DNA of 64,000 nt from a virus: IMG/VR virus record IMGVR_UViG_3300009180_000022, one strand, 5' to 3'. The notes beneath the pieces were generated by a model, which had not been told where the DNA came from, did no database searches, and saw only the letters and a list, made by a program, of their open reading frames with translations. Both the position numbers and the translations under genes were made by a program. Every line of letters begins with the position of its first letter. The first letter of the stretch is position 1. Shown piece after piece: positions 1,871-19,628 of the stretch.

Positions 1871-1930
1871 TGGATAATACAGGGGATTTCTACTCCCTAG
1901 ATGGGGGTTCGATTCCCTCACGCCGGACCA
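1856..1930 (+). tRNA. tRNA-Arg(TCT)
   Basis: CTGGCGT/ACGCCGG acceptor, GGGGA-TT-TCT-AC-TCCCT anticodon arm, GGGGG-TTCGATT-CCCTC T arm, ACCA end. Confidence 0.85.
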
Positions 1931-1936
1931 AATATT

Positions 1937-2146: not shown

Positions 2147-2219
2147 TTGATATCAACTACGAACTTAGCTATTATAACCGATGCCAATTGGCATTTTTCT
2201 TTTAATTATGAGGTATTTT

Positions 2220-2474
2220 ATGAATCAAAAAACAAAACTACGTATAGCATTTTTCAACGGCCGTGAGATGACTGCCAAGCAAATGACATCCCAATTCGGT
2301 ATTGCATCTCCTCGCAAGGTCGTGAGTGATTTGCGTCTTGAAGATGGATTGCCAATCTACGCAAACAAGCACGTAGACACCAAAGGGCGTGAAACAACCA
2401 AGTATCGTTTAGGTACTCCAAGCCGCTCAGTTATTGCTGCTGGCTACCGTGCAATGGCCCTTGGTCTTGTTTAA
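2220..2474 (+). CDS. hypothetical protein, probable winged-helix DNA-binding
   Basis: SD GAGG before ATG 2220; MTAKQMTSQFGIASPRKVVSDLR HTH-like, TTKYRLG wing. Confidence 0.65.
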   Translation: MNQKTKLRIAFFNGREMTAKQMTSQFGIASPRKVVSDLRLEDGLPIYANKHVDTKGRETTKYRLGTPSRSVIAAGYRAMALGLV

Positions 2475-2497
2475 GCTACCGTAATGTAGTATAATTA

Positions 2498-2520
2498 GGG
2501 GACTTGTTGTCCCCTTTTTC
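2498..2520 (+). terminator. rho-independent terminator
   Basis: GGGGAC-TTGTT-GTCCCC followed by TTTTT. Confidence 0.75.
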
Positions 2521-2531
2521 ATTTATAAATT

Positions 2532-2840
2532 ATGAACACAGAACTTAAATCCTTTGATTATAAACTTAAAGAAGCCGCACCACTTGCCTCACCAGAAGGT
2601 CGTAAATGGCTTATGGATCACCTTAAGATAAGCACTATTAGAGTAAGGTTCATTAAGGCTGATGGTACTGAGAGGACCATGAACTGTACCCTTGATGATC
2701 GAGTGGTTCCTGTACTAGAAAAGAAGACTGATAAAGTCAAAACACTTAACGAAGACGTGTTGCCAGTATATGATGTTGATGCTAAAGGTTGGAGATCGTT
2801 CCGCCTAGATAGTATTTTGACAATATCCTTTGATCTATGA
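2532..2840 (+). CDS. WYL-like/Sm-fold protein
   Basis: VRFIKADGTERTMNCTL ... VYDVDAKGWRSFRLDSI signature. Confidence 0.75.
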   Translation: MNTELKSFDYKLKEAAPLASPEGRKWLMDHLKISTIRVRFIKADGTERTMNCTLDDRVVPVLEKKTDKVKTLNEDVLPVYDVDAKGWRSFRLDSILTISFDL

Positions 2841-3256
2841 AAACAGGCATTACATTTGGTGCATTTGATTTATGTCATACCGGGCATGTTCTTATGTTTG
2901 CAGAGTGTAAGGCTTACTGCGATCATCTCATCGTCGGACTCCAGGTAGACCCAAGCCTTGAACGTAAAGAAAAGAATACCCCAGTACAATCACTTTATGA
3001 GCGCTTTGTGCAACTTAACGCAATCAAATATATCGATGAAATTGTACCGTATGCTTATGAGCATGAGATACTACAAATTATACAATCAAGAAACATTGGC
3101 GTTCGGTTTGTGGGCGCTGATTACATCAGTCGCGATTTTACTGGTAAAGACTATTGTGTTAGCAAATCCATCGATTTACACTTTAACAATAGAGATCATG
3201 GATTCAGTACTACAGAATTAAGGAAAAGAATTGAAAGTCCTAATAACAGGAAGTAG
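2837..3256 (+). CDS. cytidylyltransferase-family nucleotidyltransferase (TagD/RfaE-II-like)
   Basis: GITFGAFDLCHTGH (HxGH), RDHGFSTTELRKRI. Confidence 0.85.
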   Translation: MKTGITFGAFDLCHTGHVLMFAECKAYCDHLIVGLQVDPSLERKEKNTPVQSLYERFVQLNAIKYIDEIVPYAYEHEILQIIQSRNIGVRFVGADYISRDFTGKDYCVSKSIDLHFNNRDHGFSTTELRKRIESPNNRK

Positions 3257-4187
3257 AGGCTACATCGGATCTGTGCTTGCTAAAACCTTACAAAAGCAAA
3301 GTATAACATCAATTGGTATTGATCATAATGGAAGACCAGATGGTTCATCGATATATGGGGTGTATAGCGAGGCATGTATTACTGATGATGAAGTTATAGA
3401 AGTAGTAATGCAGAGTGGTATTGATACAATTTTTCATTTGGCAGCTAGTGCAGATGTAGGTGAGAGTGTCACTAACCCAGCAGCATTTTACTATAACAAC
3501 ATCGGTAGAACATCCCTTATGATGACAAAGTTACTTGCCAGCGGGTGGCAGGGTAAAGTAGTTTTTTCATCAACTGCGGCTGTATATGAGCCGTCGATGT
3601 ACATTATTAACGAGAACGACCCGAAGGTCTCTCCAAATCCTTATGGTAGGAGCAAGCTTGCGTGTGAGGAATTGTTGCTTGATATTTACAAGGCCCATGA
3701 AATACCCACAGTTGTGTTTAGGTATTTTAACGTAGCGGGGGCTTGGGATGATGTAGGTGACCATATTGATGCCAATCATATAGTTTCGCGTATGTGTAAG
3801 ACTGCACACTCAAACACGCCATTTACTATTTTTGGCACAGATAAACAAACTAGGGACGGGACATGTATAAGGGACTATCTGCATGTAAGAGATGTTTGTG
3901 ACGCGCACCTACGGGCAGCTGAATACTTAGATTTAAATCCTGGATTTCATACTTTTAATTTAGGTACAGGAACCGGTATTACAAATAAAGAAATGATAAC
4001 GGCGTTTGAGAGATTTACTGCACGTAAGTTGGATGTAAGATACGGGCTTGGGCGCCTTGGTGATCCAGATATTCTTTTTGCAAACCCATCTAAATTTACT
4101 AATTTAACGGGATATAGATATAAGCATAGTAGCTTAGAAAATATTATTTCTACAGCATGGCAATATTATTGTAACAAAATGGAGTGA
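3231..4187 (+). CDS. galE: UDP-glucose 4-epimerase-like NDP-sugar epimerase
   Basis: VLITGSRGYIGS, FSSTAAVY, YGRSK (YxxxK), RYFNVAGA, GTCIRDYLHV. Confidence 0.9.
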   Translation: MKVLITGSRGYIGSVLAKTLQKQSITSIGIDHNGRPDGSSIYGVYSEACITDDEVIEVVMQSGIDTIFHLAASADVGESVTNPAAFYYNNIGRTSLMMTKLLASGWQGKVVFSSTAAVYEPSMYIINENDPKVSPNPYGRSKLACEELLLDIYKAHEIPTVVFRYFNVAGAWDDVGDHIDANHIVSRMCKTAHSNTPFTIFGTDKQTRDGTCIRDYLHVRDVCDAHLRAAEYLDLNPGFHTFNLGTGTGITNKEMITAFERFTARKLDVRYGLGRLGDPDILFANPSKFTNLTGYRYKHSSLENIISTAWQYYCNKME

Positions 4188-4190
4188 TAG

Positions 4191-5189
4191 ATGTTTGATG
4201 AGAATGAAGTTTCTCTAAAATCGCAAGGCGGTACTGAGAGAATGAAGCGTGGACTAGCAGCAAGACTTCCAAGTGAATTTAATGATGACTTTCAAATTAT
4301 TTGTTCAAGGGTACGCGAACTGCAAGCAGATAAAATTCGGGTTTACTGGTTGCATGATCTACCTGATGATCCTGAGACTGAGCATCTCAAGGACCAAAGC
4401 AGCCGTGATAGATTTCATAAAACAGTATTCTGCGGCCAGTGGCAATACTATCGCTACCAACACATGCTTGGAATGCCCTATGATAGCAATAGCGCTGTAA
4501 TCGAAACAGCTATTGATCCGTTACCGACCGTAGTTAAATCTAAGGATGAAATTCGTTTAGTATACTCATCAACACCTCAACGTGGATTGTCGTTATTGGT
4601 ACCAGTGTTTGAGGAGCTTGCAAAGAAACATGAGAATATTATTCTTGACGTCTTCTCAAGCTTTAAGATTTATGGGTGGGATGGAGCTGATCAACAATTT
4701 GAACCTTTATATGAGCGTTGCAGGCAGCATCCAAGGATTAACTATCACTCATTTGCTCCAAACGAGGTAGTAAAGGAAACACTACTTAAAGCACATATCC
4801 ATGCATACCCGTCTATCTGGCTTGAGTGTAATAGTCAGAGTATTATTGAGGCGATGTCTGCTGGCGCCCTATGTGTGCATCCAAACTTTGGTGGGCTTAT
4901 TGATACAAGTGGTGGTATGAATTTTATGTATCAAGGACACTCAGATCCTAACACTCACGCTGGTATTTTTTATCAAGCATTAGACAATGCAATTAGCGTG
5001 GTAAACAACGAACAAGTTCAAACATACCTGCAGCTTGTAAAAATGTACGCTGATAACAGATACAACTGGGGCAAGGTTACCCAGCAATGGGTTGATTTAC
5101 TTTCTAACCTAAAGAATCAGTACTCGTCTATTGGTAGTAGATCACTACCAGGAAACAATCAAACTTTCGTTTATAATACAACTCGATGA
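4191..5189 (+). CDS. GT-B (GT4-like) glycosyltransferase
   Basis: GGTE, YSSTPQRGL, YPSIWLECNSQSIIEAMSAG (ExxxxxxxEAM). Confidence 0.8.
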   Translation: MFDENEVSLKSQGGTERMKRGLAARLPSEFNDDFQIICSRVRELQADKIRVYWLHDLPDDPETEHLKDQSSRDRFHKTVFCGQWQYYRYQHMLGMPYDSNSAVIETAIDPLPTVVKSKDEIRLVYSSTPQRGLSLLVPVFEELAKKHENIILDVFSSFKIYGWDGADQQFEPLYERCRQHPRINYHSFAPNEVVKETLLKAHIHAYPSIWLECNSQSIIEAMSAGALCVHPNFGGLIDTSGGMNFMYQGHSDPNTHAGIFYQALDNAISVVNNEQVQTYLQLVKMYADNRYNWGKVTQQWVDLLSNLKNQYSSIGSRSLPGNNQTFVYNTTR

Positions 5190-6163
5190 TTTTAACCCGC
5201 ACACCCCTACGAGTAAGCTTGTTCGGTGGTGGTAGTGATCTCCCTTCCTACTACAATGAAAATGTAGGAAAAGTTCTATCATTCACAATAGACAAATACA
5301 TGTACATCGCACTCTGCCGTACAGCACTCCAGGGTATTAAAGTTGTATATAACGAAGTCGAACAAGCAGCAAATCTAGAAGATGTTAAGCATTCGAGGGT
5401 AAGAGAGTGCTTGAGGGACTTTGACATACATTCTCATATTGAGATAAGTTCGTTCTGTGAGATACCAACCAAAGGTACAGGGCTTGGATCGTCATCAACA
5501 TTTACTGTTGGATTAATTAACGCATTGTCTGAACTTAAAGGTATATCACTTAATAAATCCGATATTGCCCGTAATGCATGCTTTATAGAAATGCAGATGT
5601 GTAATGAGCCAATAGGTAAGCAAGATCAATATGCTGCAGCTTACGGAGGATGTAACATATTTGAATTTAATCCTAACGATCATGTCACAGCTATCAACCC
5701 AGGGTTTGAACGCACTGTTTTAACTAACCTCAATAAGAACTTAATGATGTTCTATACAGGTATATCTAGAAATGCGTCTGACATTTTAGGAATACAATCT
5801 AGCAGTACTAACAGCAACTTATTACTGTTAAGTAATATGGTGGGAATGGTAGATAAAGCAAAAAACTTCTTACTTAAAGGAGACGTTGATTCGATTGGTG
5901 CTATGTTAGATGAAGGCTGGCAATTGAAGAAGCAGCTAGCGTATAATGTATCGAATGACTTGATAGATATTCAATACAAGAAAGCTATTCAGGCAGGGGC
6001 TCTAGGCGGTAAGATTTTAGGTGCCGGTGGAGGTGGGTATTGGTTATTTTACGTGCCTAATGAACGTCAAGATGCAGTAAGAAGAGCAATGGGTAATTTA
6101 CAGGAATTTAATTTTAATTTTGAGGACACTGGTACAACAGTATTATACAATGAAAGCAAGTGA
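5186..6163 (+). CDS. hddA: D-glycero-alpha-D-manno-heptose-7-phosphate kinase (GHMP kinase)
   Basis: RTPLRVSLFGGGSD, PTKGTGLGSSS, GKQDQYAAAYGG, GGKILGAGGGG. Confidence 0.85.
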   Translation: MILTRTPLRVSLFGGGSDLPSYYNENVGKVLSFTIDKYMYIALCRTALQGIKVVYNEVEQAANLEDVKHSRVRECLRDFDIHSHIEISSFCEIPTKGTGLGSSSTFTVGLINALSELKGISLNKSDIARNACFIEMQMCNEPIGKQDQYAAAYGGCNIFEFNPNDHVTAINPGFERTVLTNLNKNLMMFYTGISRNASDILGIQSSSTNSNLLLLSNMVGMVDKAKNFLLKGDVDSIGAMLDEGWQLKKQLAYNVSNDLIDIQYKKAIQAGALGGKILGAGGGGYWLFYVPNERQDAVRRAMGNLQEFNFNFEDTGTTVLYNESK

Positions 6164-9884: not shown

Positions 9885-10406
9885 ATGAAAACATCAACAC
9901 GTAAAGCAAAAGAGCCGCAACTGCCCGGTACCGATAGAATCATGCTTAAGTTCGATCTTAAGAAAGGCATGTCTATCAATCGTGCAATTGTATTCTGTAG
10001 TGCATATCTTGATAGTCAACCTGATCCGACTAAGGCGTCTAATGCCGTAGTTCAGACCCTTGAGATTCCGTTTCCTTTCTTTAAGGAACCTTCTCAGGCA
10101 AAGATCATGGCATTAGCCGCTATCGAACAGCTACTACTAATGGATGTATTTGATCCAGTAGCAGCCGGTGAAATCGCTAATGCTAAATTTGAACGTATTC
10201 AGAAGAAGATGCCTTATGCCGTTCAAGGTGAGGCTATCAATAAGTCACGCAGGGGTGCTAAGAGGGATGTTGCACGTCAGATTTACATGGAGAACAGGGA
10301 CATGGATGAGAAGCTTGTCATTGCCCAGGTAGCCAAGGAACTTGACATTTCACCACAGAATGCATACACTTACATTTATCTGGTAAAAAAGTCCCTTAAG
10401 ATCTAA
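9885..10406 (+). CDS. hypothetical protein with C-terminal HTH-like motif
   Basis: VIAQVAKELDISPQNAYTYIY; similar motif in ORF 20093. Confidence 0.7.
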   Translation: MKTSTRKAKEPQLPGTDRIMLKFDLKKGMSINRAIVFCSAYLDSQPDPTKASNAVVQTLEIPFPFFKEPSQAKIMALAAIEQLLLMDVFDPVAAGEIANAKFERIQKKMPYAVQGEAINKSRRGAKRDVARQIYMENRDMDEKLVIAQVAKELDISPQNAYTYIYLVKKSLKI

Positions 10407-10411
10407 AGCAG

Positions 10412-10440
10412 TGGCTTTTTTTAGCTATATACCTTACAAT
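10412..10440 (+). promoter_or_regulatory. sigma70-type promoter upstream of leader ORF
   Basis: TGGCTT-17bp-TACAAT, preceded by CAG like other family members. Confidence 0.5.
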
Positions 10441-10467
10441 CAATTTTTAGGTCAACAAGACAAAGAT

Positions 10468-10560
10468 ATGCTACATTGCACGAAACCATCCACACAGATT
10501 AATTGGAGTCTCCGCTCAGATGAGGCCGGATATCCTTTTGGTTCGGGGTCTTGTAAGTAG
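10468..10560 (+). CDS. candidate attenuator leader peptide MLHCTKPSTQINWSLRSDEAGYPFGSGSCK
   Basis: 30 sense codons, all different; 3' end overlaps antiterminator strand; SD weak. Confidence 0.55.
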   Translation: MLHCTKPSTQINWSLRSDEAGYPFGSGSCK

Positions 10561-10581
10561 TAAATCTACCACTTTAACAAG

Positions 10582-10614
10582 AACCCCAGGACTAAACAAC
10601 CTGGGGTTTTTTTT
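10582..10614 (+). terminator. rho-independent terminator (attenuator) upstream of tRNA island
   Basis: AACCCCAGG-9nt-CCTGGGGTT with T8 tract. Confidence 0.85.
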
Positions 10615-10635
10615 CATCAGCTGTTTAAAAAACGG

Positions 10636-10664
10636 TTGATTTAATTAACAAGGTACCATATAAT
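10636..10664 (+). promoter_or_regulatory. sigma70-type promoter, tRNA island P1
   Basis: TTGATT-17bp-TATAAT with A-tract upstream. Confidence 0.8.
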
Positions 10665-10723
10665 TGGTACATGAGATAGGAAAAACAGCTTAGAAAAGTT
10701 GTTACAACTGGATTAAAAAACAG

Positions 10724-10752
10724 TTGATTTAATTAAAGGTGTATCATATAAT
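10724..10752 (+). promoter_or_regulatory. sigma70-type promoter, tRNA island P2 (near-duplicate of P1, 88-nt period)
   Basis: TTGATT-17bp-TATAAT followed by TGGTACAT as in P1. Confidence 0.8.
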
Positions 10753-10806
10753 TGGTACATCTGCTGAGAAATCAGCAACGTTCTTTAAAAAATTAGGTAG
10801 TTATTT

Positions 10807-10881
10807 ACTGCGTTCGTCTATCGGTTAGGACATCAGGTTTTCAACCTGAGAAGACGAGTTCGACTCTCGTACGCAGTACCA
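10807..10881 (+). tRNA. tRNA-Glu(TTC)
   Basis: cloverleaf; TCAGG-TT-TTC-AA-CCTGA; ACCA. Confidence 0.9.
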
Positions 10882-10977
10882 TATTAGAATACATTGCTTG
10901 CCCGTCCGCAAAAGACGAGGTAAACTATTAAAGAAACAGGTTCGAATCCTGGGGACTGGTAGTGTGTTCTAATATGG
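10879..10977 (+). ncRNA. long-stem-enclosed element with internal T-loop hairpin
   Basis: CCATATTAGAATACATTGC pairs with GTAGTGTGTTCTAATATGG; internal CAGG-TTCGAAT-CCTG. Confidence 0.45.
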
Positions 10978-10982
10978 TTTAT

Positions 10983-11058
10983 GTGCGTGTGCACCGAATG
11001 GCTAGGTAGCGGATTGCAAATCCGTATTATGCAGGTTCGAGTCCTGTCACGCACTCCA
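10983..11058 (+). tRNA. tRNA-Cys(GCA)
   Basis: GCGGA-TT-GCA-AA-TCCGT; U73; CCA. Confidence 0.9.
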
Positions 11059-11067
11059 CAAGAATTT

Positions 11068-11142
11068 GGGCTGTTGGTATAACTGGGAACACAGTGGCCT
11101 TGCAAGTCACAGTTGGGAGTTCGATTCTCCCACGGTCCACCA
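11068..11142 (+). tRNA. tRNA-Ala(TGC)
   Basis: G3:U70 pair; GTGGC-CT-TGC-AA-GTCAC; ACCA. Confidence 0.9.
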
Positions 11143-11144
11143 AA

Positions 11145-11330
11145 TCTCGTTACTACTTTCGTTAAAGTAGCGTTTGATTAGCGATAGAGATCCGGTGGCA
11201 GAAAACCGTTAGCGAGGTCAAACTCAGGCTCTGATAGGCAGAATCTCAACTGCACACAGACTAAAGAATAAATGGAGATGGACAGAGTAACTTCTCAATC
11301 AAGGGCTGGCGTGGAACCCAGTAGCTTGTA
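11145..11330 (+). ncRNA. putative structured ncRNA of unknown class
   Basis: ~185 nt between tRNAs with several hairpins (CTACTTT/AAAGTAG, CGGT/ACCG, GCAG/CTGC); no credible ORF. Confidence 0.4.
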
Positions 11331-11338
11331 CTTATTTT

Positions 11339-11413
11339 GGCTCGTTCATATAATGGTCATTATCGCGGATTGTCTATCCGTAGATGGGAGTTCGATTCTC
11401 CCACGAGTCGCCA
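11339..11413 (+). tRNA. tRNA-Asp(GTC)
   Basis: GCGGA-TT-GTC-TA-TCCGT; G73; CCA. Confidence 0.88.
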
Positions 11414-11419
11414 GTTTTT

Positions 11420-11495
11420 GCCGAGATAGCTCAGTTGGTAGAGCACCTGTCTGAAGAACAGGGTGTGGGCGGTTCGATCCCGTCTCTCGGTACCA
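11420..11495 (+). tRNA. tRNA-Phe(GAA)
   Basis: canonical D arm AGCTCAGTTGGTAGAGC; CCTGT-CT-GAA-GA-ACAGG; ACCA. Confidence 0.9.
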
Positions 11496-11507
11496 GAATA
11501 TTTTTTT

Positions 11508-11581
11508 CCTCCGTTAGCTCAATGGTAGAGCAATCGGCTGATAACCGATAGACAGAAGTTCAATTCTTCTACAGAGGACCA
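11508..11581 (+). tRNA. tRNA-Ile(GAT)
   Basis: ATCGG-CT-GAT-AA-CCGAT; ACCA. Confidence 0.9.
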
Positions 11582-11589
11582 AGTTTTAT

Positions 11590-11673
11590 GGAGGGGATGC
11601 TCTAATGGTAGGGCAGCAGGCTGTAACCCTGTGGCCTTCGGGCAAGTAGGTTCGATCCCTACCCACTCCACCA
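11590..11673 (+). tRNA. tRNA-Tyr(GTA)
   Basis: GCAGG-CT-GTA-AC-CCTGT; long variable arm; ACCA. Confidence 0.9.
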
Positions 11674-11678
11674 AGTTT

Positions 11679-11739
11679 TAGGATGCGTTCAGCAAATAAT
11701 ACATTAGACTTCTAATCTAAACCGTAAAAAAGCATCCTG
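11679..11739 (+). ncRNA. Y-RNA-like family copy 1, carrying an isolated anticodon stem-loop (UCU)
   Basis: TAGGATGC/GCATCCTG stem, GTTCAGCAA motif; insert TTAGA-CT-TCT-AA-TCTAA. Confidence 0.6.
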
Positions 11740-11748
11740 TTATTTTAT

Positions 11749-11825
11749 GCCCTGGTGACGGAATTGGTATACGTACTGGTCTTAGAAACCAGGTTCTGGG
11801 AGTTCAAGTCTCCCCTAGGGCACCA
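11749..11825 (+). tRNA. tRNA-Leu(TAG), short variable arm
   Basis: CTGGT-CT-TAG-AA-ACCAG; ACCA. Confidence 0.85.
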
Positions 11826-11882
11826 ATAAAGCTCGCCTTGATTGATGGCGTATAATGAGATAAATTGTCAATCACAAATTTC

Positions 11883-11957
11883 GCGTCTTTAGTAAAATGG
11901 AGATTACACAACGCTACGAACGTTGGAGTGGGAGTTCGATTCTCTCAGGACGCACCA
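11883..11957 (+). tRNA. tRNA-Arg(ACG)
   Basis: CAACG-CT-ACG-AA-CGTTG; ACCA. Confidence 0.9.
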
Positions 11958-11966
11958 GATTTTTAT

Positions 11967-12040
11967 GCGGGGTTCGTATAGTGGTAATACCTTAGCCTTC
12001 CAAGCTAAAGCGAGGAGTTCGATTCTCCTACCCCGCTCCA
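11967..12040 (+). tRNA. tRNA-Gly(TCC)
   Basis: TTAGC-CT-TCC-AA-GCTAA; U73; CCA. Confidence 0.9.
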
Positions 12041-12046
12041 TAGTTT

Positions 12047-12110
12047 TAGGATAGCAACAGCAAACATTAAAAATCTTTTCTTGAAAAAAAAGCCAAAAAA
12101 TGCTATCCTG
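12047..12110 (+). ncRNA. Y-RNA-like family copy 2
   Basis: TAGGATAGCA/TGCTATCCTG stem, ACAGCAA motif; weak insert hairpin with loop CT-TGA-AA. Confidence 0.55.
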
Positions 12111-12118
12111 TTTTATTT

Positions 12119-12192
12119 GCCCTTTTAGTATAATGGTATTACACCTGTTTTGTAATCAGGTTACGGCAGTTCGATTCTGTCATGGGGCACCA
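12119..12192 (+). tRNA. tRNA-Thr(TGT)
   Basis: CCTGT-TT-TGT-AA-TCAGG; ACCA. Confidence 0.85.
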
Positions 12193-12199
12193 TAGTTTT

Positions 12200-12273
12200 C
12201 TCGGTGTGGCGTAATGGTAGCGTTCGTGGTTTGGGGCCATGAGGCGAAGGTTCGATTCCTTCTACCGAGACCA
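12200..12273 (+). tRNA. tRNA-Pro(TGG)
   Basis: CGTGG-TT-TGG-GG-CCATG; C1:G72, A73; CCA. Confidence 0.88.
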
Positions 12274-12276
12274 AGT

Positions 12277-12492
12277 TTTGTAAGTGTTAGCAAGAGAAGC
12301 CATGCTGCCTAGGTTTGTTCGAACAACTGAAGCAGTAAAAGGATGCGGGTTCGATGCCCGGCTGGTCGCTTGAATGGGTCTGGCATACAATAGGTGTATC
12401 ATCTGGAGGACTCCCAAGTAACGTACCGAATCCCGTCCGGACTAGTGCAATCGGGTGAATGGTTCCTATAATGTGGAGGAACAACTTACAAA
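12277..12492 (+). ncRNA. Y-RNA-like family copy 3 (large ~215 nt, divergent)
   Basis: TTTGTAAGT-GTT/AAC-A-ACTTACAAA closing stem followed by AGCAA; internal CGGG-TTCGATG-CCCG T-loop hairpin. Confidence 0.45.
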
Positions 12493-12502
12493 TTCAATTT
12501 AT

Positions 12503-12581
12503 TCCGTAGAACCCGAGCATGGTGCATGGGCTTGACTGTTAATCAATGTTTAGCTGGGATCGTTACCCAGATACGGAGCCA
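12503..12581 (+). tRNA. tRNA-Asn(GTT), atypical (extended D arm, T loop ATCGTTA)
   Basis: TTGA-CT-GTT-AA-TCAA; G73; CCA. Confidence 0.7.
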
Positions 12582-12588
12582 ATTTTAT

Positions 12589-12662
12589 TCGGGCGTTGTG
12601 TAATGGTAGCACAACAGACTTTGACTCTGTTAGCGTAGGTTCGATCCCTACCGCCCGTACCA
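12589..12662 (+). tRNA. tRNA-Gln(TTG)
   Basis: ACAGA-CT-TTG-AC-TCTGT; ACCA. Confidence 0.9.
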
Positions 12663-12668
12663 AAGTAG

Positions 12669-12697
12669 TTGATTTTTATTGCAGAAGAGTTTATAAT
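12669..12697 (+). promoter_or_regulatory. sigma70-type promoter
   Basis: TTGATT-17bp-TATAAT. Confidence 0.75.
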
Positions 12698-12717
12698 TTA
12701 ATTTTAAAGGAAACGAC

Positions 12718-12741
12718 ATGAAACGTTCAGGTAAACGATAG
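12718..12741 (+). CDS. candidate mini leader ORF MKRSGKR
   Basis: SD AAGGA upstream; stop codon abuts hairpin 12741-12780; precedes two tRNA-Lys genes. Confidence 0.35.
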   Translation: MKRSGKR

Positions 12742-12806
12742 TGTCAACTTTAGATCCCATGTATGGTCTTAAGTTGGCACGTAAAAGAAAATTTAATACG
12801 TAACAA

Positions 12807-12882
12807 CCACTCGTGGCGTTAATGGTAGCGTACATGACTCTTAATCATCGAGGTCTGAGTTCGAATCTCAGCGAGTGGACCA
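12807..12882 (+). tRNA. tRNA-Lys(CTT)
   Basis: ATGA-CT-CTT-AA-TCAT; ACCA. Confidence 0.88.
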
Positions 12883-12887
12883 TACAT

Positions 12888-12963
12888 GGGATTGTAGTGA
12901 AATGGTTATCACAGCAGACTTTTAATCTGCCAATTCTGGGTTCGAGTCCCAGCAGTCCCACCA
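12888..12963 (+). tRNA. tRNA-Lys(TTT)
   Basis: GCAGA-CT-TTT-AA-TCTGC; ACCA. Confidence 0.9.
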
Positions 12964-13045
12964 TATAAAAACACATTCTAAAACATAAAGATTTAGGATC
13001 ATCATGGGGTACTTTCAGCTCATCCCCGAGTGTGTTTCTATATGG
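12961..13045 (+). ncRNA. long-stem-enclosed element, similar ends to 10879-10977
   Basis: CCATATAAAAACACATTC pairs with GAGTGTGTTTCTATATGG. Confidence 0.4.
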
Positions 13046-13058
13046 TAAAGGTATTATA

Positions 13059-13310
13059 ATGTTTAGAGTGTATTATACAGACCCATTGAGTGGTCAAGCT
13101 CATGGGCACGATTTAGAATTGTTGACGGAAGCGTTGAGATATACAGAAGGATTCCGAAAGCTAGGAATGTCATTCGTGACAATGGTTTCTGAGAATCCTG
13201 ATTCTGTCGGTAAAGCTGGAGTTGATTCAATCGTCAATGGAGTATGTCCTGATGGTGTTGCATACGATTGGAATAAAGCCAGCCGTATTGGACGAGCAAA
13301 GAAAAAGTAA
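13059..13310 (+). CDS. hypothetical protein
   Basis: SD AAGG before ATG 13059; FVTMVSENPDSVGKAGVD. Confidence 0.65.
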   Translation: MFRVYYTDPLSGQAHGHDLELLTEALRYTEGFRKLGMSFVTMVSENPDSVGKAGVDSIVNGVCPDGVAYDWNKASRIGRAKKK

Positions 13311-13321
13311 AACTTCTTAGG

Positions 13322-13395
13322 GTTGGTCTTAGTGTTAGCGGTTAGCACCCCGGGTTGTGATTCCGGTAGGATGGATTCGAATTCCATAGGCCACC
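13322..13395 (+). tRNA. tRNA-His(GTG), no encoded CCA
   Basis: G-1:C73; CCGGG-TT-GTG-AT-TCCGG; flanked by inverted repeat AAAACTTCTTAGGG/CCCTAAGAAGTTTT. Confidence 0.8.
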
Positions 13396-13408
13396 CCTAA
13401 GAAGTTTT

Positions 13409-13483
13409 CTCGCTGTCGTATAATGGATAATACGACTCACTCCTAACGAGTAAATAGGGGTTCGATTCCCTTCGGCGGGACCA
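13409..13483 (+). tRNA. tRNA-Arg(CCT)
   Basis: ACTCA-CT-CCT-AA-CGAGT; ACCA. Confidence 0.85.
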
Positions 13484-13490
13484 AGGATAC

Positions 13491-13566
13491 GGATGATTAG
13501 CTCAGTTGGTAGAGCACCGCCTCGACATGGCGAAGGTCAGTGGCTCGAGTCCACTATCATCCACCA
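13491..13566 (+). tRNA. tRNA-Val(GAC), with C33 and C54 variants
   Basis: CGCC-TC-GAC-AT-GGCG; canonical D arm; ACCA. Confidence 0.8.
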
Positions 13567-13599
13567 TTAATAAATACTCGTTTATATCTAGGAGATAAA

Positions 13600-13944
13600 A
13601 TGGCTGATTACGTAGATTACATGTTAAGGTTCGATAGTAAAGAACAAGCTGAAAGCGCGCTTGTTGAGTGGGGGTTTGCCCGTAGGTTTAAACCATCAGA
13701 TTTTCACGGTGAAGTTATTGTTGGAATACCCCCGCACGCTCTTGATGTTATTGGTATAATTCAAGTTCCTGGGGAAGCACCTCCTCCTACTGATGACATT
13801 ACAGTTGTAATAGCTGAATATCATATAGACATCTCGTTTGTTGAATTACCAGGGTATCATATTAATCTTCGAACAGTGGATAATTATCCAGAGCTCGAAC
13901 CGTACAGAGTATTTCCGGCCAACCCACTAAGGCAGTGGGCGTAG
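13600..13944 (+). CDS. hypothetical protein (possible tail-fibre-associated small protein)
   Basis: SD AGGAG; ALDVIGII...GYHINLR...PANPLRQWA; AATAAATA late-like box upstream. Confidence 0.6.
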   Translation: MADYVDYMLRFDSKEQAESALVEWGFARRFKPSDFHGEVIVGIPPHALDVIGIIQVPGEAPPPTDDITVVIAEYHIDISFVELPGYHINLRTVDNYPELEPYRVFPANPLRQWA

Positions 13945-13955
13945 TAAGTTTTTTT

Positions 13956-14044
13956 GGAGAGTAATGCAGCGGGGATGGTCCTGCGACTGGCCTTGAAAAC
14001 CAGGTTCTCAGAAATGGGATGGGGTTCGACTCCTCTGCTCTCCG
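13956..14044 (+). tRNA. tRNA-Ser(TGA), no encoded CCA
   Basis: GGAGAGT/GCTCTCC, G73; CT-TGA-AA loop; long variable arm. Confidence 0.75.
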
Positions 14045-14087
14045 CCCTTGAGTCAAAGTCAAGACTCGAACGATTATAAATAAGTGT

Positions 14088-14738
14088 ATGTATTACACTG
14101 TTTATAAAACGACAAATAAGATTAATGGCAAGATCTATATTGGATCGCATAAGACCAGAAATCCTAATGACTCTTACCTAGGATCAGGTAAGTATTTAAA
14201 ACATGCCATAGAGAAGCATGGAGTACAGGCATTTACTAAAGAAGTATTGTTTGTGTTCGAGACTGCTGTAGAGATGTATGCTAAGGAAGCAGAGTTGGTA
14301 ACAAAAGAATTTCTTTCAGAAGAAAATACATACAACCTTAAGGTTGGAGGTTTTGGTGGATTTGATTATCTTAATAATTGGAAAGAAAATCCATCTCACT
14401 CTATGGAACATATGGTACGAATGTATAGGTTAGGAACAGCAGCACGCAATGCAGATCGTATTGAGCGATTTTCAAACACGTCATACAATCAAACCTGGGG
14501 GGAGATGTCCACGCGTAATCAGATACAACAGTACAGTGAAGGCAGAGTACCAGGAATGTTAGGTAAAATCCATAGTGCAGATACAAAACATAAAATTTCA
14601 ACTGCTAACTCGTTGAAACAACAAGGAACTAAAAATTCACAGTTTGGCACTGTATGGATTACTGACGGTATTAGCAATAAAAAGATAAAAAAAGGTTTAC
14701 ATATACCAACCGGTTGGTATAGAGGTAGAACAAAGTAA
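14088..14738 (+). CDS. GIY-YIG homing endonuclease (SegB-like) in tRNA island
   Basis: YTVYKTTNKINGKIYIGSH, YLGSG, YNLKVGGFGG, NUMOD3-like and WITDG C-terminal motifs; TATAAATA at 14075. Confidence 0.85.
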   Translation: MYYTVYKTTNKINGKIYIGSHKTRNPNDSYLGSGKYLKHAIEKHGVQAFTKEVLFVFETAVEMYAKEAELVTKEFLSEENTYNLKVGGFGGFDYLNNWKENPSHSMEHMVRMYRLGTAARNADRIERFSNTSYNQTWGEMSTRNQIQQYSEGRVPGMLGKIHSADTKHKISTANSLKQQGTKNSQFGTVWITDGISNKKIKKGLHIPTGWYRGRTK

Positions 14739-14758
14739 ACATATGCAGAATAAATCAG

Positions 14759-14787
14759 TTGCATTAATTACCGTAAAAGGTTATAAT
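14759..14787 (+). promoter_or_regulatory. sigma70-type promoter of the ncRNA + vWA protein unit
   Basis: TTGCAT-17bp-TATAAT. Confidence 0.7.
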
Positions 14788-14808
14788 TAATGCATAGTGA
14801 GTAAGTTT

Positions 14809-14991
14809 TAGGATCGGTACAGCAACAACACTAGCGGAGTCATATCCGCATCCGAACTGTTTCTAGATACCCTGTTATTAACTGGAGCCTTGATTGGCTT
14901 TGAAGGTAAATAACAACGCGAAAGCAAGGATTCTTTAGACGAACAGGAGTTTCGATTTCTCATGTAAATCAAAAAGTAGAAACCGATCCTG
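14809..14991 (+). ncRNA. Y-RNA-like family copy 4 (large insert)
   Basis: TAGGATCGGT/ACCGATCCTG stem, ACAGCAA motif; internal GCGGA/TCCGC hairpin and GAG-TTTCGATTT-CTC T-loop-like hairpin. Confidence 0.6.
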
Positions 14992-15007
14992 TTATATTTG
15001 AAAGATT

Positions 15008-15097
15008 TAGAGTAGGTTCAGCAAAACAAAACTAGCTGGTTCGATTCCAGCATTACGCTTCTGCGTGATGTGCCACGGTGGCAATCAAACTACTCTG
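15008..15097 (+). ncRNA. Y-RNA-like family copy 5, permuted tRNA mimic
   Basis: TAGAGTAG/CTACTCTG stem, GTTCAGCAA; T arm GCTGG-TTCGATT-CCAGC, loop-closed acceptor ATTACGC-TTCT-GCGTGAT, D-like TGCCA-CGG-TGGCA. Confidence 0.65.
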
Positions 15098-15104
15098 TTG
15101 TTTT

Positions 15105-15228
15105 TAGGTTAAGTTCCGCAAAACAAAATATGCTAATAGGAACTGAAAGACTGGTTCGATTCCAGCCAGGGCACGTAGTGTCTTGGTAGTGTAATGGTAG
15201 CACGTCAGTATGCAAAAAGTTTAACCTG
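15105..15228 (+). ncRNA. Y-RNA-like family copy 6, YrlA-type circularly permuted tRNA mimic
   Basis: TAGGTTAA/TTAACCTG stem, GTTCCGCAA; ACTGA/TCAGT stem encloses T arm, loop-closed acceptor CCAGGGCAC-GTA-GTGTCTTGG and D arm TA-GTGT-AATGGTA-GCAC. Confidence 0.7.
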
Positions 15229-15248
15229 TTGATTTGAAAGGAAATATT

Positions 15249-16688
15249 ATGTCAACATTCGTAGAAGCCGTAGTAAATCAAGAAGCCCGTACTGCCAATG
15301 GCATGAAGGCACGCAAGTCTACTGCTAACGCAGTCGTAGACCTATTCTACAACATCGGTGCATCACGTGGCAAGAACGTGATTCCAGCCTTCACCGCTGC
15401 ATTCGCAGAAGATAAGGCCCTTGCCCTGCGCGTTGCCGCATGGGCTCGTGATGTTCGTGGTGGTGCAGGTGAGCGTCAACTGTTTCGTGATATTCTAGTA
15501 CACCTAGAACACAATGATCGCGCAGCAGCAAAGGCACTTGTTGCCAAGGTCCCAGAATTAGGACGTTGGGATGACTTGTTCGTTTTCAATTCTAAGGAAA
15601 TGAAGACTGCAGCATATACATTGCTTGGTAACGCTTTGCGTGAAAAGAATGGACTTGCTGCTAAGTGGACACCTCGTCAAGGTAAGATTGCAGCTGAAGT
15701 TCGTGAGTTCTTCGGTATGTCGCCAAAGTTCTATCGTAAGTCCTTAGTTGAAATGACCAAGGTAGTGGAATCGCAAATGTGCGCAAAAGACTGGAATGAG
15801 ATTAACTTCTCGCATGTTCCATCTGTAGCTGCATCGCGTTACAAGAAGGCATTTAACCGTAACACTCCAGCTTATGCAGCATATGTTGCAGAGTTGATGA
15901 AGGATCCAAAGGATCGTACAATAGAGGTTAAGGTTAATGCTGGCGCAGTATACCCATATGATGTACTGAAAGGTCGCATCTCTGGTTATGGTATGTCGTT
16001 TGACAAGACAGAATTGGACTTGATCCAAAAGCAATGGGAAGCACTACCTAACTTTGTTGGGGATGCAAACATTCTGCCTTTGGTTGACGTTTCTGGTTCT
16101 ATGACTTGCGCAGCAGGCGGGGTTGGATCGAAGTCTAAGCTGACTTGTTTGGAAGTTGCAGTCTCTCTGGGATTGTATCTTGCAGATAAGAATAAGGGTA
16201 AGTTCAAGGATACGTTCCTGACTTTCTCTAGCAAGCCAGAGTTGGTGACTTTGAAGGGTAACATTAATGAGAAGATTAGCCAAATGATTTCTTCTGATTG
16301 GGGAATGTCTACTGACTTGATTCGTGCGTTCGATAAGATCCTTAGCGTAGCAGTTAATGGTAAAGTACCTAATAGCGAGATGCCAGAAATGTTGCTTATC
16401 CTTTCGGACATGCAATTTAACCAATGCATTAAGCACGATGACTCGGCAATCGAAATGATTACACGTAAGTACGAAGCAGCAGGATACGCCTTACCAAAGG
16501 TTGTGTTCTGGAACTTGAATGCATCATACGGCAATGTGCCGGTGAAGTTTGACAAGTCTGGCACTGCATTGGTTTCGGGGTTCTCTCCAGCCATTGTTAA
16601 GCCTCTGCTATCTGGTGATATGGAAGACTTTTCGCCAGCTGCTGTGATGATGAAAACCATCATGGATGACCGTTATGCTGTAATCTAA
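15249..16688 (+). CDS. DUF2828-like helical domain + vWA (MIDAS) protein, Ro60/TROVE-like architecture
   Basis: RDVRGGAGER, GRWDDL, LAAKWTPR, DVSGSM MIDAS, WGMSTD, LSDMQF, VVFWNL, LVSGFSP. Confidence 0.75.
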   Translation: MSTFVEAVVNQEARTANGMKARKSTANAVVDLFYNIGASRGKNVIPAFTAAFAEDKALALRVAAWARDVRGGAGERQLFRDILVHLEHNDRAAAKALVAKVPELGRWDDLFVFNSKEMKTAAYTLLGNALREKNGLAAKWTPRQGKIAAEVREFFGMSPKFYRKSLVEMTKVVESQMCAKDWNEINFSHVPSVAASRYKKAFNRNTPAYAAYVAELMKDPKDRTIEVKVNAGAVYPYDVLKGRISGYGMSFDKTELDLIQKQWEALPNFVGDANILPLVDVSGSMTCAAGGVGSKSKLTCLEVAVSLGLYLADKNKGKFKDTFLTFSSKPELVTLKGNINEKISQMISSDWGMSTDLIRAFDKILSVAVNGKVPNSEMPEMLLILSDMQFNQCIKHDDSAIEMITRKYEAAGYALPKVVFWNLNASYGNVPVKFDKSGTALVSGFSPAIVKPLLSGDMEDFSPAAVMMKTIMDDRYAVI

Positions 16689-16696
16689 GCATGACA

Positions 16697-16721
16697 GAGG
16701 ACTCGAAAGAGTCCTCATTTT
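16697..16721 (+). terminator. rho-independent terminator
   Basis: GAGGACTC-GAAA-GAGTCCTC followed by ATTTT. Confidence 0.7.
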
Positions 16722-16755
16722 GAAGTGTACTGGTAGTTCATTTCAAAATGAAAAA

Positions 16756-16841
16756 GGAAGACTCCCATAATGGTATTGGAGCGGCTTGCTAAGCCGTCGA
16801 CCGGAAACGGTTTCGGGGTTCGAGTCCCCGGTCTTCCGCCA
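16756..16841 (+). tRNA. tRNA-Ser(GCT)
   Basis: GCGGC-TT-GCT-AA-GCCGT; long variable arm; G73; CCA. Confidence 0.88.
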
Positions 16842-16876
16842 ATCATAAGTAGATTTTTTAAACAAAAGGTTATATA

Positions 16877-17041
16877 ATGAGATCAAAGACGAACAGTAAC
16901 TTTAAGCTTACAAAACGTACTAAGACAATCTTGGCAATAGTTAAGTTTAGTGATCCGCATGTGCGTGGTGCGTTTAAAAGCATGATGATTGATGCACAGG
17001 TAGCAGCAGCAATGCCGGCACCTAAGAAAGAAACGAAGTAA
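16877..17041 (+). CDS. small hypothetical protein (54 aa)
   Basis: MRSKTNSNFKLTKRTKTILAIVKFSDPHVRGAFKSMMIDAQ...; fills gap between tRNAs. Confidence 0.5.
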   Translation: MRSKTNSNFKLTKRTKTILAIVKFSDPHVRGAFKSMMIDAQVAAAMPAPKKETK

Positions 17042-19148: not shown

Positions 19149-19628
19149 ATGAGAAAACTAGATTTAACCGAAGTAAAGAATTTTATCCAAGCCCAAAGCC
19201 TGGAAACAAAGATCTATATCGGCGCCGATTCAGAACGATACCAAAAAGTAATTGATGGACGCAATCAATGGTTTGCCGATTACATTTTAGTTGTGGTTGT
19301 TCATATTGATGGATGCCATGGCTGTAAGATCTTTGGTGAAGTGCAGACTGAACGTGACTACGATGCTAAGGCTAGTCGTCCTTCTACACGTCTTATGACC
19401 GAGGTATACAAGGTTGCTGAGTTGTTCCTTAAGATGGAAGACGTGCTTGATGGTCGGGATGTGGAGGTGCATCTTGATATTAATCCTAATGAGATGTACA
19501 CTAGTAGCATAGTGGTACAGCAAGCAGTCGGCTATATCAAAGGTGTGTGCAATATTACTCCTATGGTTAAGCCAAATGCGTTTGCAGCTTCTTATGCTGC
19601 CGACAGGTTTAAGTCAGTAATGGCTTAA
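19149..19628 (+). CDS. RNase H-like YkuK/DUF458 family protein
   Basis: IYIGADS, RLMTEV, EVHLDIN, KPNAFAASYAAD. Confidence 0.8.
   Translation: MRKLDLTEVKNFIQAQSLETKIYIGADSERYQKVIDGRNQWFADYILVVVVHIDGCHGCKIFGEVQTERDYDAKASRPSTRLMTEVYKVAELFLKMEDVLDGRDVEVHLDINPNEMYTSSIVVQQAVGYIKGVCNITPMVKPNAFAASYAADRFKSVMA

What the first reader, a model, noticed from the sequence alone, without database searches (positions are those of the whole stretch)
11679..12110. Minimal copies of the same RNA scaffold displaying an isolated anticodon stem-loop (decoy candidates)
Seen: two ~60-nt units between tRNA genes share the TAGGAT../..ATCCTGTT stem and CAGCAA motif of the units beside the vWA gene. Unit 11679 carries a perfect 5-bp/7-nt anticodon stem-loop, TTAGA-CT-TCT-AA-TCTAA (C32 U33 UCU A37 A38, Arg). 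Unit 12047 has a weaker A:U hairpin with loop CT-TGA-AA (Ser UGA). Inference: a modular scaffold in which one protein-binding stem carries interchangeable tRNA parts, elbow in some copies and anticodon loop in others. Anticodon-only copies could act as decoys or bait for anticodon nucleases (colicin D, for example, is known to cut tRNA-Arg) or for modification enzymes.
Basis: partly seen in the sequence, partly recalled or inferred. Interest (0 to 1): 0.8.

Follow-up and report, generated by a model that had tools for sequence, protein, structure and literature searches.

The report
Mini Y-like RNAs showing anticodon-shaped loops
Two ~63-nt genes wedged between tRNA genes of a freshwater T4-like phage are stripped-down relatives of the Y-like RNAs beside the phage's Ro60-like protein gene, and like most of their relatives they display a hairpin shaped like a tRNA anticodon arm, an undescribed form of tRNA mimicry whose purpose is untested.

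Summary
Units 11679-11741 and 12047-12112 share an 8-10 bp end-to-end stem (UAG...CUG) and a CAGCAA motif with three longer units directly upstream of ORF 15234-16688. That ORF's predicted fold matches Ro60 along its full length. A pattern scan finds 154 such units on the gene's strand and 1 on the other, in the window plus 61 related metagenomic phage contigs. The same scaffold lies near DUF2828-type Ro-like genes in isolates infecting Synechococcus, Aeromonas, Cronobacter, Shigella, Vibrio and Listeria.

Of 61 distinct minimal units, 49 carry a 5-bp/7-nt hairpin (shuffles: mean 5.2). 29 have a YU-NNN-RA loop (shuffles: 0.16). The stems covary, and identical loops sit on different stems. All nine displayed triplets are anticodons of the clade's own tRNAs. 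Intermediate units carry the same hairpin between D-like and T arms.

The "modular scaffold displaying tRNA parts" reading is therefore supported. The nuclease-decoy function is untested.

Caveats:
- Unit 1 alone prefers a shifted tetraloop fold.
- Unit 2 gives an 8-nt loop with five pairs.
- Protein binding and RNA accumulation are not shown.

Verdict: a new variant of the Ro60/Y-RNA kind.

The parts
11679..11741 (+). Minimal Y-like RNA unit 1: closing stem 11679-11686/11732-11739, CAGCAA 11690-11695, inner 2-bp AC/GT (11701-11702 with 11724-11725), anticodon-arm-like hairpin 11704-11720 with loop CUUCUAA (UCU at 11711-11713)
   Evidence: model R1 67.1 bits, E 2e-14; covariation of all three helices; fold z -3.2
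12047..12112 (+). Minimal Y-like RNA unit 2: closing stem 12047-12056/12101-12110, CAGCAA 12058-12063, A:U hairpin CUUUU 12075-12079 / AAAAG 12088-12092 with 8-nt loop CUUGAAAA
   Evidence: R1 52.3 bits, E 1e-10; folds; a metatranscriptome contig spans 12042-12167 with no other letters and one gap (record 21)
11590..11673 (+). tRNA-Tyr(GUA), 5 nt upstream of unit 1
   Evidence: ARAGORN; spacing
11749..11825 (+). tRNA-Leu(UAG), 7 nt downstream of unit 1
11967..12040 (+). tRNA-Gly(UCC), 6 nt upstream of unit 2
12119..12192 (+). tRNA-Thr(UGU), 6 nt downstream of unit 2
14809..14993 (+). Long Y-like unit (185 nt), same closing stem and CAGCAA motif
15008..15099 (+). Y-like unit with T arm, closed 7-bp acceptor-like stem and D-like arm (YrlA-like permuted tRNA body)
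   Evidence: R1 34.5 bits
15105..15230 (+). Y-like unit (CCGCAA variant) with T arm and D arm
15234..16688 (+). Ro60-like protein gene (Pfam DUF2828 + DUF7788/vWA; likely start ATG 15250)
   Evidence: Pfam; PHROG 850 'RNA-binding protein'; AF2 model pLDDT 74; top 12 listed Foldseek PDB hits are all Ro60/TROVE structures, full-length alignments, E 3e-7 to 2e-4

Best explanation
Units 1 and 2 are genes for small RNAs of about 60 nt belonging to a Y-RNA-like family that partners a divergent Ro60-like protein (DUF2828 + vWA) of tRNA-rich phages. They are transcribed as part of the tRNA array. They are released by the same processing that frees the neighbouring tRNAs: RNase P at the next tRNA's 5' end, 3' trimming back to the closing stem. 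The invariant part is the U.G-A:U-G:C-closed terminal stem plus the (A)CAGCAA motif on its 5' side; this is the handle for the Ro-like protein, analogous to the stem and GNCGAA/CGAA motif of bacterial and Thermus-phage Y RNAs. The variable apical part is a hairpin with anticodon-arm geometry: 5 bp and a 7-nt C-U-NNN-A-A loop. It is presented to some factor that reads anticodon loops, so the particle acts as an adaptor or competitor in tRNA-centred conflict or tRNA quality control. Shown here: the family, its strand, its structure, its linkage to the Ro-like gene, and conservation of the hairpin geometry. Inferred: transcription and processing, protein binding, and recognition of the loop.
For: (1) Family and strand: 154 units on + against 1 on -. 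The closing U.G pair is invariant in 61/61 and would be a C-A mismatch on the other strand. (2) Linkage: 40 of 56 loci have a unit ending within 200 nt upstream of the Ro-like gene, and 24 of 81 minimal units sit in that position. The same scaffold lies near DUF2828 genes at 31-48% identity in Synechococcus phage BUCT-ZZ01, Aeromonas LAh_6 (about 8 tandem minimal units without tRNAs), Cronobacter S13, Shigella Sf14 (minimal units between tRNAs), KVP40 and Listeria LP-083-2. (3) The protein has the Ro60 fold. (4) Structure: on 23 units, 98.2% of cells are paired against 80.2% in shuffles (0/500). The covariation score is 0.514 against 0.149 (0/500), and slid controls give 23-40%. Three of the five hairpin pairs and both inner pairs show double changes. 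The closest relative's orthologue (L001:8801) has TTGAA-CTTTTAA-TTCAA where the window has TTAGA-CTTCTAA-TCTAA. (5) Geometry: 49/61 have a 5/7 hairpin against 5.2 expected, and 29/61 have YU-NNN-RA against 0.16. Identical loops occur on up to 4 different stems. All 9 triplets belong to the clade's 33 tRNA anticodons (P about 3e-4 to 3e-3, not independent). (6) Intermediates place the same hairpin between a D-like arm and a T arm, where a tRNA has its anticodon arm. (7) Literature. Y RNAs are tRNA mimics encoded beside Ro60, also in phages (PMC4201824, PMC12135203). A Ro60-like protein of phage Bas63, encoded next to its tRNA genes, counters a defence system, and its authors guessed that some of those 'tRNAs' are Y RNAs (PMC11482910). 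Listeria phage CKA15 makes very abundant non-coding RNAs within 2 kb of its Rsr-like gene (PMC12282133).
Against: No binding, processing or accumulation data exist for these two RNAs. Unit 1 alone folds preferentially into a shifted tetraloop hairpin, and unit 2 lacks a clean 5/7 hairpin. The hairpin stems are all A:U-rich, unlike real anticodon stems, and do not copy the phage's own tRNA arms (tRNA-Thr has CCUGU-UUUGUAA-UCAGG). Within the largest subfamily only the middle loop base varies (CUU-N-UAA), which would also fit a protein-binding loop with one unread base. About 20% of minimal units, and many units in distant phages, have other loops. Rfam's YrlA model does not match the units, and the motif differs from GNCGAA. 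The pairing counts lean on a scan that required a paired closing stem.
Confidence: 0.55

Rival explanations
1. They are Y-like RNAs that bind the Ro-like protein, but the apical hairpin is only a stabilising cap inherited from a tRNA-derived ancestor. The RNAs would act like short bacterial Y RNAs (YrlB/Yrn2 type), for example by gating the protein's cavity, and loop identity would not matter.
For: Bacteria carry a second, short hairpin-type Y RNA beside the tRNA-like one (PMC4201824). About 20% of minimal units and most Listeria/LAh_6 units lack anticodon-like loops. The stems are weak and A:U-rich. Unit 1 prefers another register on its own.
Against: Loop length is fixed at 7 across subfamilies with unrelated stems. 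Positions 32, 33, 37 and 38 are conserved while 34-36 vary. The same loop is kept on four different stems. All nine triplets are real anticodons of the clade.
Confidence: 0.25
2. They are cis-acting spacers of the tRNA operon, such as nuclease entry sites or folding insulators that help tRNA maturation, and do not act in trans.
For: 54 of 81 minimal units abut a tRNA, and spacing to neighbours equals tRNA-tRNA spacing. The one exact-match metatranscriptome contig joins unit 2 to tRNA-Thr, as a precursor would.
Against: 24 of 81 minimal units sit directly upstream of the Ro-like gene without a flanking tRNA. LAh_6 and Listeria phages have tandem minimal units with no tRNAs between them. The invariant motif is shared with the long tRNA-like units. 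Most tRNA spacers in the window lack such units.
Confidence: 0.1
3. They are decaying remnants, either tRNA or Y-RNA pseudogenes, or a chance resemblance.
For: Unit 2 is imperfect. Slots turn over quickly between relatives.
Against: Compensatory changes occur in three helices between close and distant relatives. Motif bases are invariant over Ro-like proteins as low as 31% identical. The strand bias is 154:1. Shuffle tests reject chance.
Confidence: 0.03

Closest known systems
Bacterial Y RNAs YrlA/YrlB with Rsr (Ro60 orthologue); Rfam RF02553 (Chen et al. 2014, PMC4201824)
   Same: Encoded within a few kb of a Ro60-fold protein gene and on the same strand. The 5' and 3' ends pair into a stem next to a short conserved motif on the 5' strand. 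There are several paralogues per genome, some with a tRNA-like T/D-arm body and some short hairpins. The long units here (for example 15008-15099) have the YrlA order: T arm, closed acceptor-like stem, D arm.
   Different: The motif is (A)CAGCAA, not GNCGAA. The Rfam YrlA model gives no hit on any unit. The protein matches Pfam DUF2828/DUF7788, not TROVE (no TROVE hit at E <= 0.01), and resembles Ro60 only by fold. The minimal units display an anticodon-arm-shaped hairpin instead of the elbow. They sit as 'slots' inside tRNA arrays.
Thermus phage phiLo Ro60 with Yrl1/Yrl2 (PMC12135203; PDB 9KOP, 9L5Y)
   Same: A phage-encoded Ro60-fold protein with Y-like RNAs just upstream. 9KOP and 9L5Y are the best structural matches to the window's protein.
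   Different: phiLo's protein is a recognisable TROVE Ro60 and its RNAs carry the CGAA motif. No anticodon-like module or tRNA-array location is described.
Ro60-like gp130 of coliphage Bas63 and the Rsr-like CKA15_055 of a Listeria phage (PMC11482910, PMC12282133)
   Same: By inference these belong to the same protein family: Ounavirinae and P100-like Listeria phages are among the tblastn hits. The genes lie next to tRNA genes. The authors guessed that Y RNAs hide among the 'tRNAs' or among abundant non-coding transcripts. gp130 counters the ppl defence system.
   Different: Neither paper defines the RNAs. The scaffold and its anticodon-like minimal form are not described. I did not check those two genomes themselves.
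Anticodon-arm mimics in mRNA, such as the E. coli thrS operator (from my own knowledge, not tested here)
   Same: An isolated hairpin imitates an anticodon arm so that an anticodon-reading protein binds it.
   Different: That is a cis-regulatory element for one synthetase. Here there are free-standing small RNAs on a shared protein-binding scaffold, with many different triplets.

Membership tests
Y RNA (Ro60-associated small RNA) | Bound by a Ro60-family protein | not testable with these tools
   No RNA-protein tool was available. Only genomic linkage and the protein's Ro60 fold bear on it.
Y RNA (Ro60-associated small RNA) | Encoded near the Ro60 homologue on the same strand | tested here: met
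   Units 1 and 2 lie 3.5 and 3.1 kb upstream on the same strand. Paralogues abut the gene. 40/56 loci have a unit within 200 nt upstream.
Y RNA (Ro60-associated small RNA) | 5' and 3' ends pair into a stem adjoining a conserved motif on the 5' strand | tested here: met
   The 8-bp stem covaries with no broken pair in 61 units (one C-U at the innermost pair); C-GCAA is invariant. The scan required at least 5 of these pairs.
YrlA (Rfam RF02553) | Match to the curated covariance model; GNCGAA motif | tested here: not met
   No unit matches. The only YrlA hit (20.6 bits against a cutoff of 69) lies on tRNAs at 11380-11446. The motif is CAGCAA.
Y RNA (Ro60-associated small RNA) | Accumulates as a stable small RNA | tested here: inconclusive
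   A lake metatranscriptome contig covers 12042-12167 exactly, but contigs show neither ends nor levels, and DNA carry-over is not excluded.
tRNA anticodon arm (mimic) | 5-bp stem, 7-nt loop, Y32 U33 NNN R37 (A38) | tested here: met
   Unit 1 is TTAGA-CTTCTAA-TCTAA. In the family, 49/61 have 5/7 and 29/61 meet the strict form. Unit 2 does not meet it (8-nt loop). Unit 1's lowest-energy fold is a different register.
tRNA anticodon arm (mimic) | Occupies the anticodon-arm position of a tRNA-like body in fuller relatives | tested here: met
   The 96-102-nt units carry a D-like hairpin, the same hairpin, then a T arm (L004:3705, L005:4260, L015:5062, L022:3378).
tRNA gene | Cloverleaf detected by ARAGORN or the Rfam tRNA model; encoded CCA as in the neighbouring genes | tested here: not met
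   No call covers either unit. The units end in CUGUU, without CCA.
Ro60/TROVE protein (for ORF 15234-16688) | HEAT-repeat ring plus vWA domain; sequence match to TROVE | tested here: inconclusive
   The fold criterion is met: full-length Foldseek matches to Ro60 structures, probability 1.00, TM about 0.5. The sequence criterion is not: Pfam gives DUF2828/DUF7788, and no PDB sequence hit appears.

The most novel reading that the evidence does not exclude
The phage loads its Ro60-like protein with a panel of interchangeable bait RNAs. Each shows one tRNA part, either an elbow or an anticodon loop of a chosen identity (Lys-UUU, Tyr-GUA, Asn-GUU, Arg-UCU, Thr-UGU and others). The particles would intercept or titrate host tRNA-cleaving defence nucleases, or hand cleaved loops to repair enzymes. 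This would be a modular RNA-decoy platform that evolves by swapping loops.
Probability: 0.15. Interest if true: 0.9.

Novelty: new variant of a known kind. Interest (0 to 1): 0.66.

Why it matters
Ro60-like genes of this type occur in at least 707 deposited phage genomes, yet their RNA partners are undefined. One such protein has been reported to counter a bacterial defence system (PMC11482910). A simple, conserved RNA signature (UAG-stem, CAGCAA, stem-CUG) would allow these partners to be annotated; some of them are at present labelled 'tRNA-OTHER' or over-long 'tRNA-Ser'. The minimal copies show that the scaffold can carry only an anticodon-shaped loop. Y RNAs so far are known to mimic the tRNA elbow, not the anticodon arm. 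This points experiments at anticodon-reading factors, namely defence nucleases, modification enzymes and repair ligases. It also makes testable the published guess that Y RNAs compete with tRNAs for anticodon nucleases (PMC7790460).

Tried and rejected
- **Rfam.** Searches at gathering and at E <= 10 gave no family for the units. The weak Dicty_Class_I hit on 11681-11739 (21.5 bits, E 2.9) and the YrlA hit on tRNAs are chance level.
- **DNA and sequence searches.** Megablast of 10400-17000 against phage records found only tRNA-sized matches. phmmer of the protein against PDB sequences found nothing useful.
- **Whole genome.** None is held for this window, so copies outside the 64 kb could not be counted.
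- **RNA runs.** Four metatranscriptomes were laid. No listed contig covers unit 1 (11679-11741). Parts of the stretch had no cover (for example 14149-14739). Depth figures are per contig and mix organisms, so they do not rank the units.
- **Literature.** A 'DUF2828' search returned only unrelated plant and tardigrade papers. The Annual Review on bacterial Ro60 was not held. Searches for phage anticodon-loop decoy RNAs found none.
- **Own-tRNA copy.** I considered whether the hairpins copy the phage's own tRNA anticodon arms. They do not: the stems differ and are A:U-rich.
- **Missing-tRNA replacement.** I considered whether the displayed triplet replaces a missing tRNA. It does not: the same contigs carry the matching tRNA.
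- **RNA repair genes.** No RNA ligase or RtcB gene was found among the window ORFs tested.
- **Not run.** Complex prediction was not used, because it takes no RNA.

Full report
**Context**

The window comes from a T4-like phage. It encodes T4 RNase H, gp59, gp32, gp5, gp6 and gp53 homologues. It also carries 29 tRNA genes and a tmRNA. Near-identical DNA occurs in one freshwater metagenome run holding 90% of the sampled words, which may be the sample the window was assembled from. No close relative is in the deposited phage collection.

**The observation**

- Unit 1 (11679-11741) lies 5 nt after tRNA-Tyr and 7 nt before tRNA-Leu.
- Unit 2 (12047-12112) lies 6 nt after tRNA-Gly and 6 nt before tRNA-Thr.
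- Both begin UAGGAU, carry CAGCAA three to four bases after the 5' half of the stem, and end AUCCUGUU.
- The same features occur in three longer units at 14809-14993, 15008-15099 and 15105-15230. These run up to ORF 15234-16688.
- A covariance model built from minimal units finds units 1 and 2 at 67 and 52 bits. Only the long unit 15008-15099 (34.5 bits) is also significant; the other two long units score 15.7 and 13.6 bits, among chance-level matches.

**The neighbouring protein**

- The ORF matches Pfam DUF2828 and DUF7788, and PHROG 850 'RNA-binding protein'.
- It has no useful sequence match in the PDB.
- Its AlphaFold model (pLDDT 74) aligns over its full length to Ro60 structures: Thermus phage phiLo, Deinococcus Rsr, human and Xenopus. 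These take the top 12 listed Foldseek places, with E from 3e-7 to 2e-4 and probability 1.00. Isolated vWA domains follow.
- It is therefore a Ro60-fold protein of a divergent sequence family.
- tblastn finds this family in 707 phage records at 26-48% identity: T4-like, KVP40-like, Ounavirinae, Listeria, Staphylococcus, Enterococcus, Campylobacter and Mycobacterium phages. Mycobacterium phage records annotate it as 'Ro-like RNA binding protein'.

**The RNA family**

- I fetched 61 related loci from IMG/VR through the protein.
- A pattern scan (UAG, paired stem, C-GCAA, partner, GUU) found 154 units on the gene's strand and 1 on the opposite strand.
- 40 of 56 loci with enough upstream sequence have a unit ending within 200 nt of the gene.
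- The closing stem covaries: 5 of 8 pairs show double changes, and the outermost U.G is invariant. That pair fixes the transcribed strand.
- The same scaffold lies near the homologous gene in distant isolates:
  - Synechococcus phage BUCT-ZZ01: three units upstream, one minimal with TTCAA-CTTTTAC-TTGAA.
  - Aeromonas phage LAh_6: about eight tandem minimal units, one with TTTGA-CTTTTAA-TCAAA inside the same ACA...CCGU frame as unit 1.
  - Shigella phage Sf14: minimal units between tRNA genes just downstream of the gene.
  - Listeria phage LP-083-2: three units directly upstream.
  - KVP40 and Cronobacter phage S13.
- The family is thus a general partner of this Ro-like protein type. It is absent from Rfam.

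**Is the anticodon-arm shape real?**

- Of 61 distinct minimal units (75 nt or shorter), 49 contain a 5-bp/7-nt hairpin. In 500 shuffles of the inserts the mean was 5.2 and the maximum 14.
- 29 have a YU-NNN-RA loop, against a shuffle mean of 0.16 and a maximum of 2.
- With 5-bp stems, loop length 7 occurs in 49 units and no other length in more than 13.
- I aligned 23 units chosen by their flanking frame, not by their hairpin. The three-helix structure (closing stem, inner 2 bp, 5-bp hairpin) is paired in 98.2% of cells, against 80.2% in shuffles (0/500).
- The covariation score is 0.514 against 0.149 (0/500). Slid controls give 23-40% paired.
- Three of the five hairpin pairs and both inner pairs change on both sides.
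- The orthologue in the closest relative (Ro-like protein 90% identical) has TTGAA-CTTTTAA-TTCAA where the window has TTAGA-CTTCTAA-TCTAA. That is two compensated stem changes plus a changed middle loop base.
- Identical loops sit on different stems: CUUCUAA on four, CUUUUAA and CUGUAAA on three each.
- Loop positions 32, 33, 37 and 38 are mostly C, U, A and A. Positions 34-36 vary, and A is nearly absent at 34 and 35 although the inserts are 47% A.
- The nine triplets in strict loops are UCU, UUU, UGU, GUA, GUU, GGA, GGU, UGG and GAA. All are anticodons of real tRNAs in these phages, whose set holds 33 of 64 triplets. The chance figure is 3e-4 to 3e-3, but the units are related, so this is only suggestive.

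**Modularity**

- Units of 96-102 nt carry a D-like hairpin, then the same hairpin (UCU or UUU), then a T arm. This is a tRNA-like body mounted on the scaffold.
- Units of 118-120 nt carry the hairpin (UCU, GAA or GUA), then a T arm, a closed acceptor-like stem and a D arm.
- Units of 92-110 nt have the elbow parts only, as in YrlA.
- In Cronobacter S13 and BUCT-ZZ01 the arrangement is circularly permuted. A tRNA body with open acceptor ends and CCA carries the closed scaffold stem and UUCAGCA/UCUGCAA where the anticodon arm should be. In S13 these genes are annotated 'tRNA-Ser' (121 nt) and 'tRNA-OTHER' (113 nt).
- The minimal units are the reduced end of this series.

**Caveats**

- Unit 1 folded alone prefers AUUAG-ACUU-CUAAU (pair probabilities about 0.9). 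The 5/7 register is 2.4 kcal/mol worse.
- Unit 2's five-pair stem gives an 8-nt loop. Its subfamily relatives do have 5/7 hairpins, such as CTTTA-CTTGGAA-TAAAG and CTTTT-ATGGAAA-AAAAG.
- The hairpin stems are A:U-rich and do not copy the phage's own tRNA arms.
- In the largest subfamily only the middle loop base varies.
- A fifth of minimal units, and many in distant phages, have other loops.
- Expression evidence is thin. One metatranscriptome contig spans 12042-12167 with no other letters and one gap, and no ends or levels can be read from contigs.

**Mechanism**

Most likely (0.55), these are small Y-like RNAs excised from the tRNA transcript. The Ro-like protein holds them through the stem and CAGCAA handle. 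They present an anticodon-shaped loop to a factor that reads anticodon loops.

The identity of that factor is open. Candidates are a defence nuclease, a modification enzyme or a repair enzyme. Three published observations bear on this:

- The Wolin laboratory raised the idea that a Y RNA might inhibit an anticodon nuclease by competition (PMC7790460).
- A Ro60-like protein of Bas63 counters the ppl defence system (PMC11482910).
- RtcB or RNA ligase 2 genes lie near the Ro-like gene in Listeria LP-083-2 and Aeromonas LAh_6.

Rival readings:

- Cap-only or gate RNA: 0.25.
- Cis-acting processing spacers: 0.10.
- Decay or chance: 0.03.

The decoy reading proper is given 0.15.

**Novelty**

Ro60 with Y RNAs, including in phages, is known (PMC4201824, PMC12135203). 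For this protein family the RNAs were only guessed at (PMC11482910, PMC12282133). I found no description of the UAG-stem/CAGCAA scaffold or of anticodon-arm-only Y-like RNAs inside tRNA arrays. I file it as a new variant of a known kind.

Noticed in passing
window 10997-11390 (mainly the 196-nt spacer 11143-11338 between tRNA-Ala and tRNA-Asp): In four lake and freshwater metatranscriptome runs, contigs over this stretch have summed depths of about 1,400-5,600. Neighbouring tRNA bins are far lower. The contigs show many small indel variants. There is no Rfam match and no scaffold motif. It may be an abundant unknown RNA of this phage group, or a look-alike from other organisms.
   Followed up: no
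window 12274-12588: This long spacer between tRNA-Pro and tRNA-Gln contains a T-loop hairpin (GCGGG-TTCGATG-CCCGG). One metatranscriptome (X23) shows contig depth of about 3,200-3,500 here. My strict scaffold scan did not call it.
   Followed up: partly
window 13956-14043: A tRNA-like element missed by ARAGORN: the Rfam tRNA-Sec model scores 34.9 bits, below the cutoff of 47. It is 88.7% identical to an unannotated stretch of Pseudomonas phage PHB09. A metatranscriptome contig covers it (record 24, 13955-14046).
   Followed up: no
L063 5908-6150 (Cronobacter phage S13); L062 about 5540-5880 (Synechococcus phage BUCT-ZZ01): Over-long 'tRNA-Ser' (121 nt) and 'tRNA-OTHER' (113 nt) genes are tRNA bodies with acceptor ends and CCA. 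A closed copy of the scaffold stem plus UUCAGCA/UCUGCAA stands where the anticodon arm should be. This is a circularly permuted form of the Y-like units, mis-annotated as tRNA.
   Followed up: partly
window 19149-19628; L067 5482-6012 (KVP40): A PF04308 (RNaseH_like) protein gene lies in the window's tRNA island. The same family sits immediately downstream of the Ro-like gene in KVP40. It may be a recurring partner.
   Followed up: no
L066 6860-8071 (Listeria phage LP-083-2); L064 9115-9404 (Aeromonas phage LAh_6): An RtcB-like ligase gene lies 1.3 kb downstream of the Ro-like gene in the Listeria phage. An RNA ligase 2 gene lies 3.7 kb downstream in LAh_6. This echoes the bacterial rsr-yrlBA-rtcBA arrangement.
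   Followed up: no
window 14088-14738: A SegE-type GIY-YIG homing endonuclease gene (Pfam E 2e-5) sits between the tRNA block and the Y-like units.
   Followed up: no
L005 and L043 (IMG/VR relatives): ARAGORN calls a suppressor-type tRNA with anticodon UUA ('Stop(tta)') inside the tRNA arrays of two related contigs.
   Followed up: no
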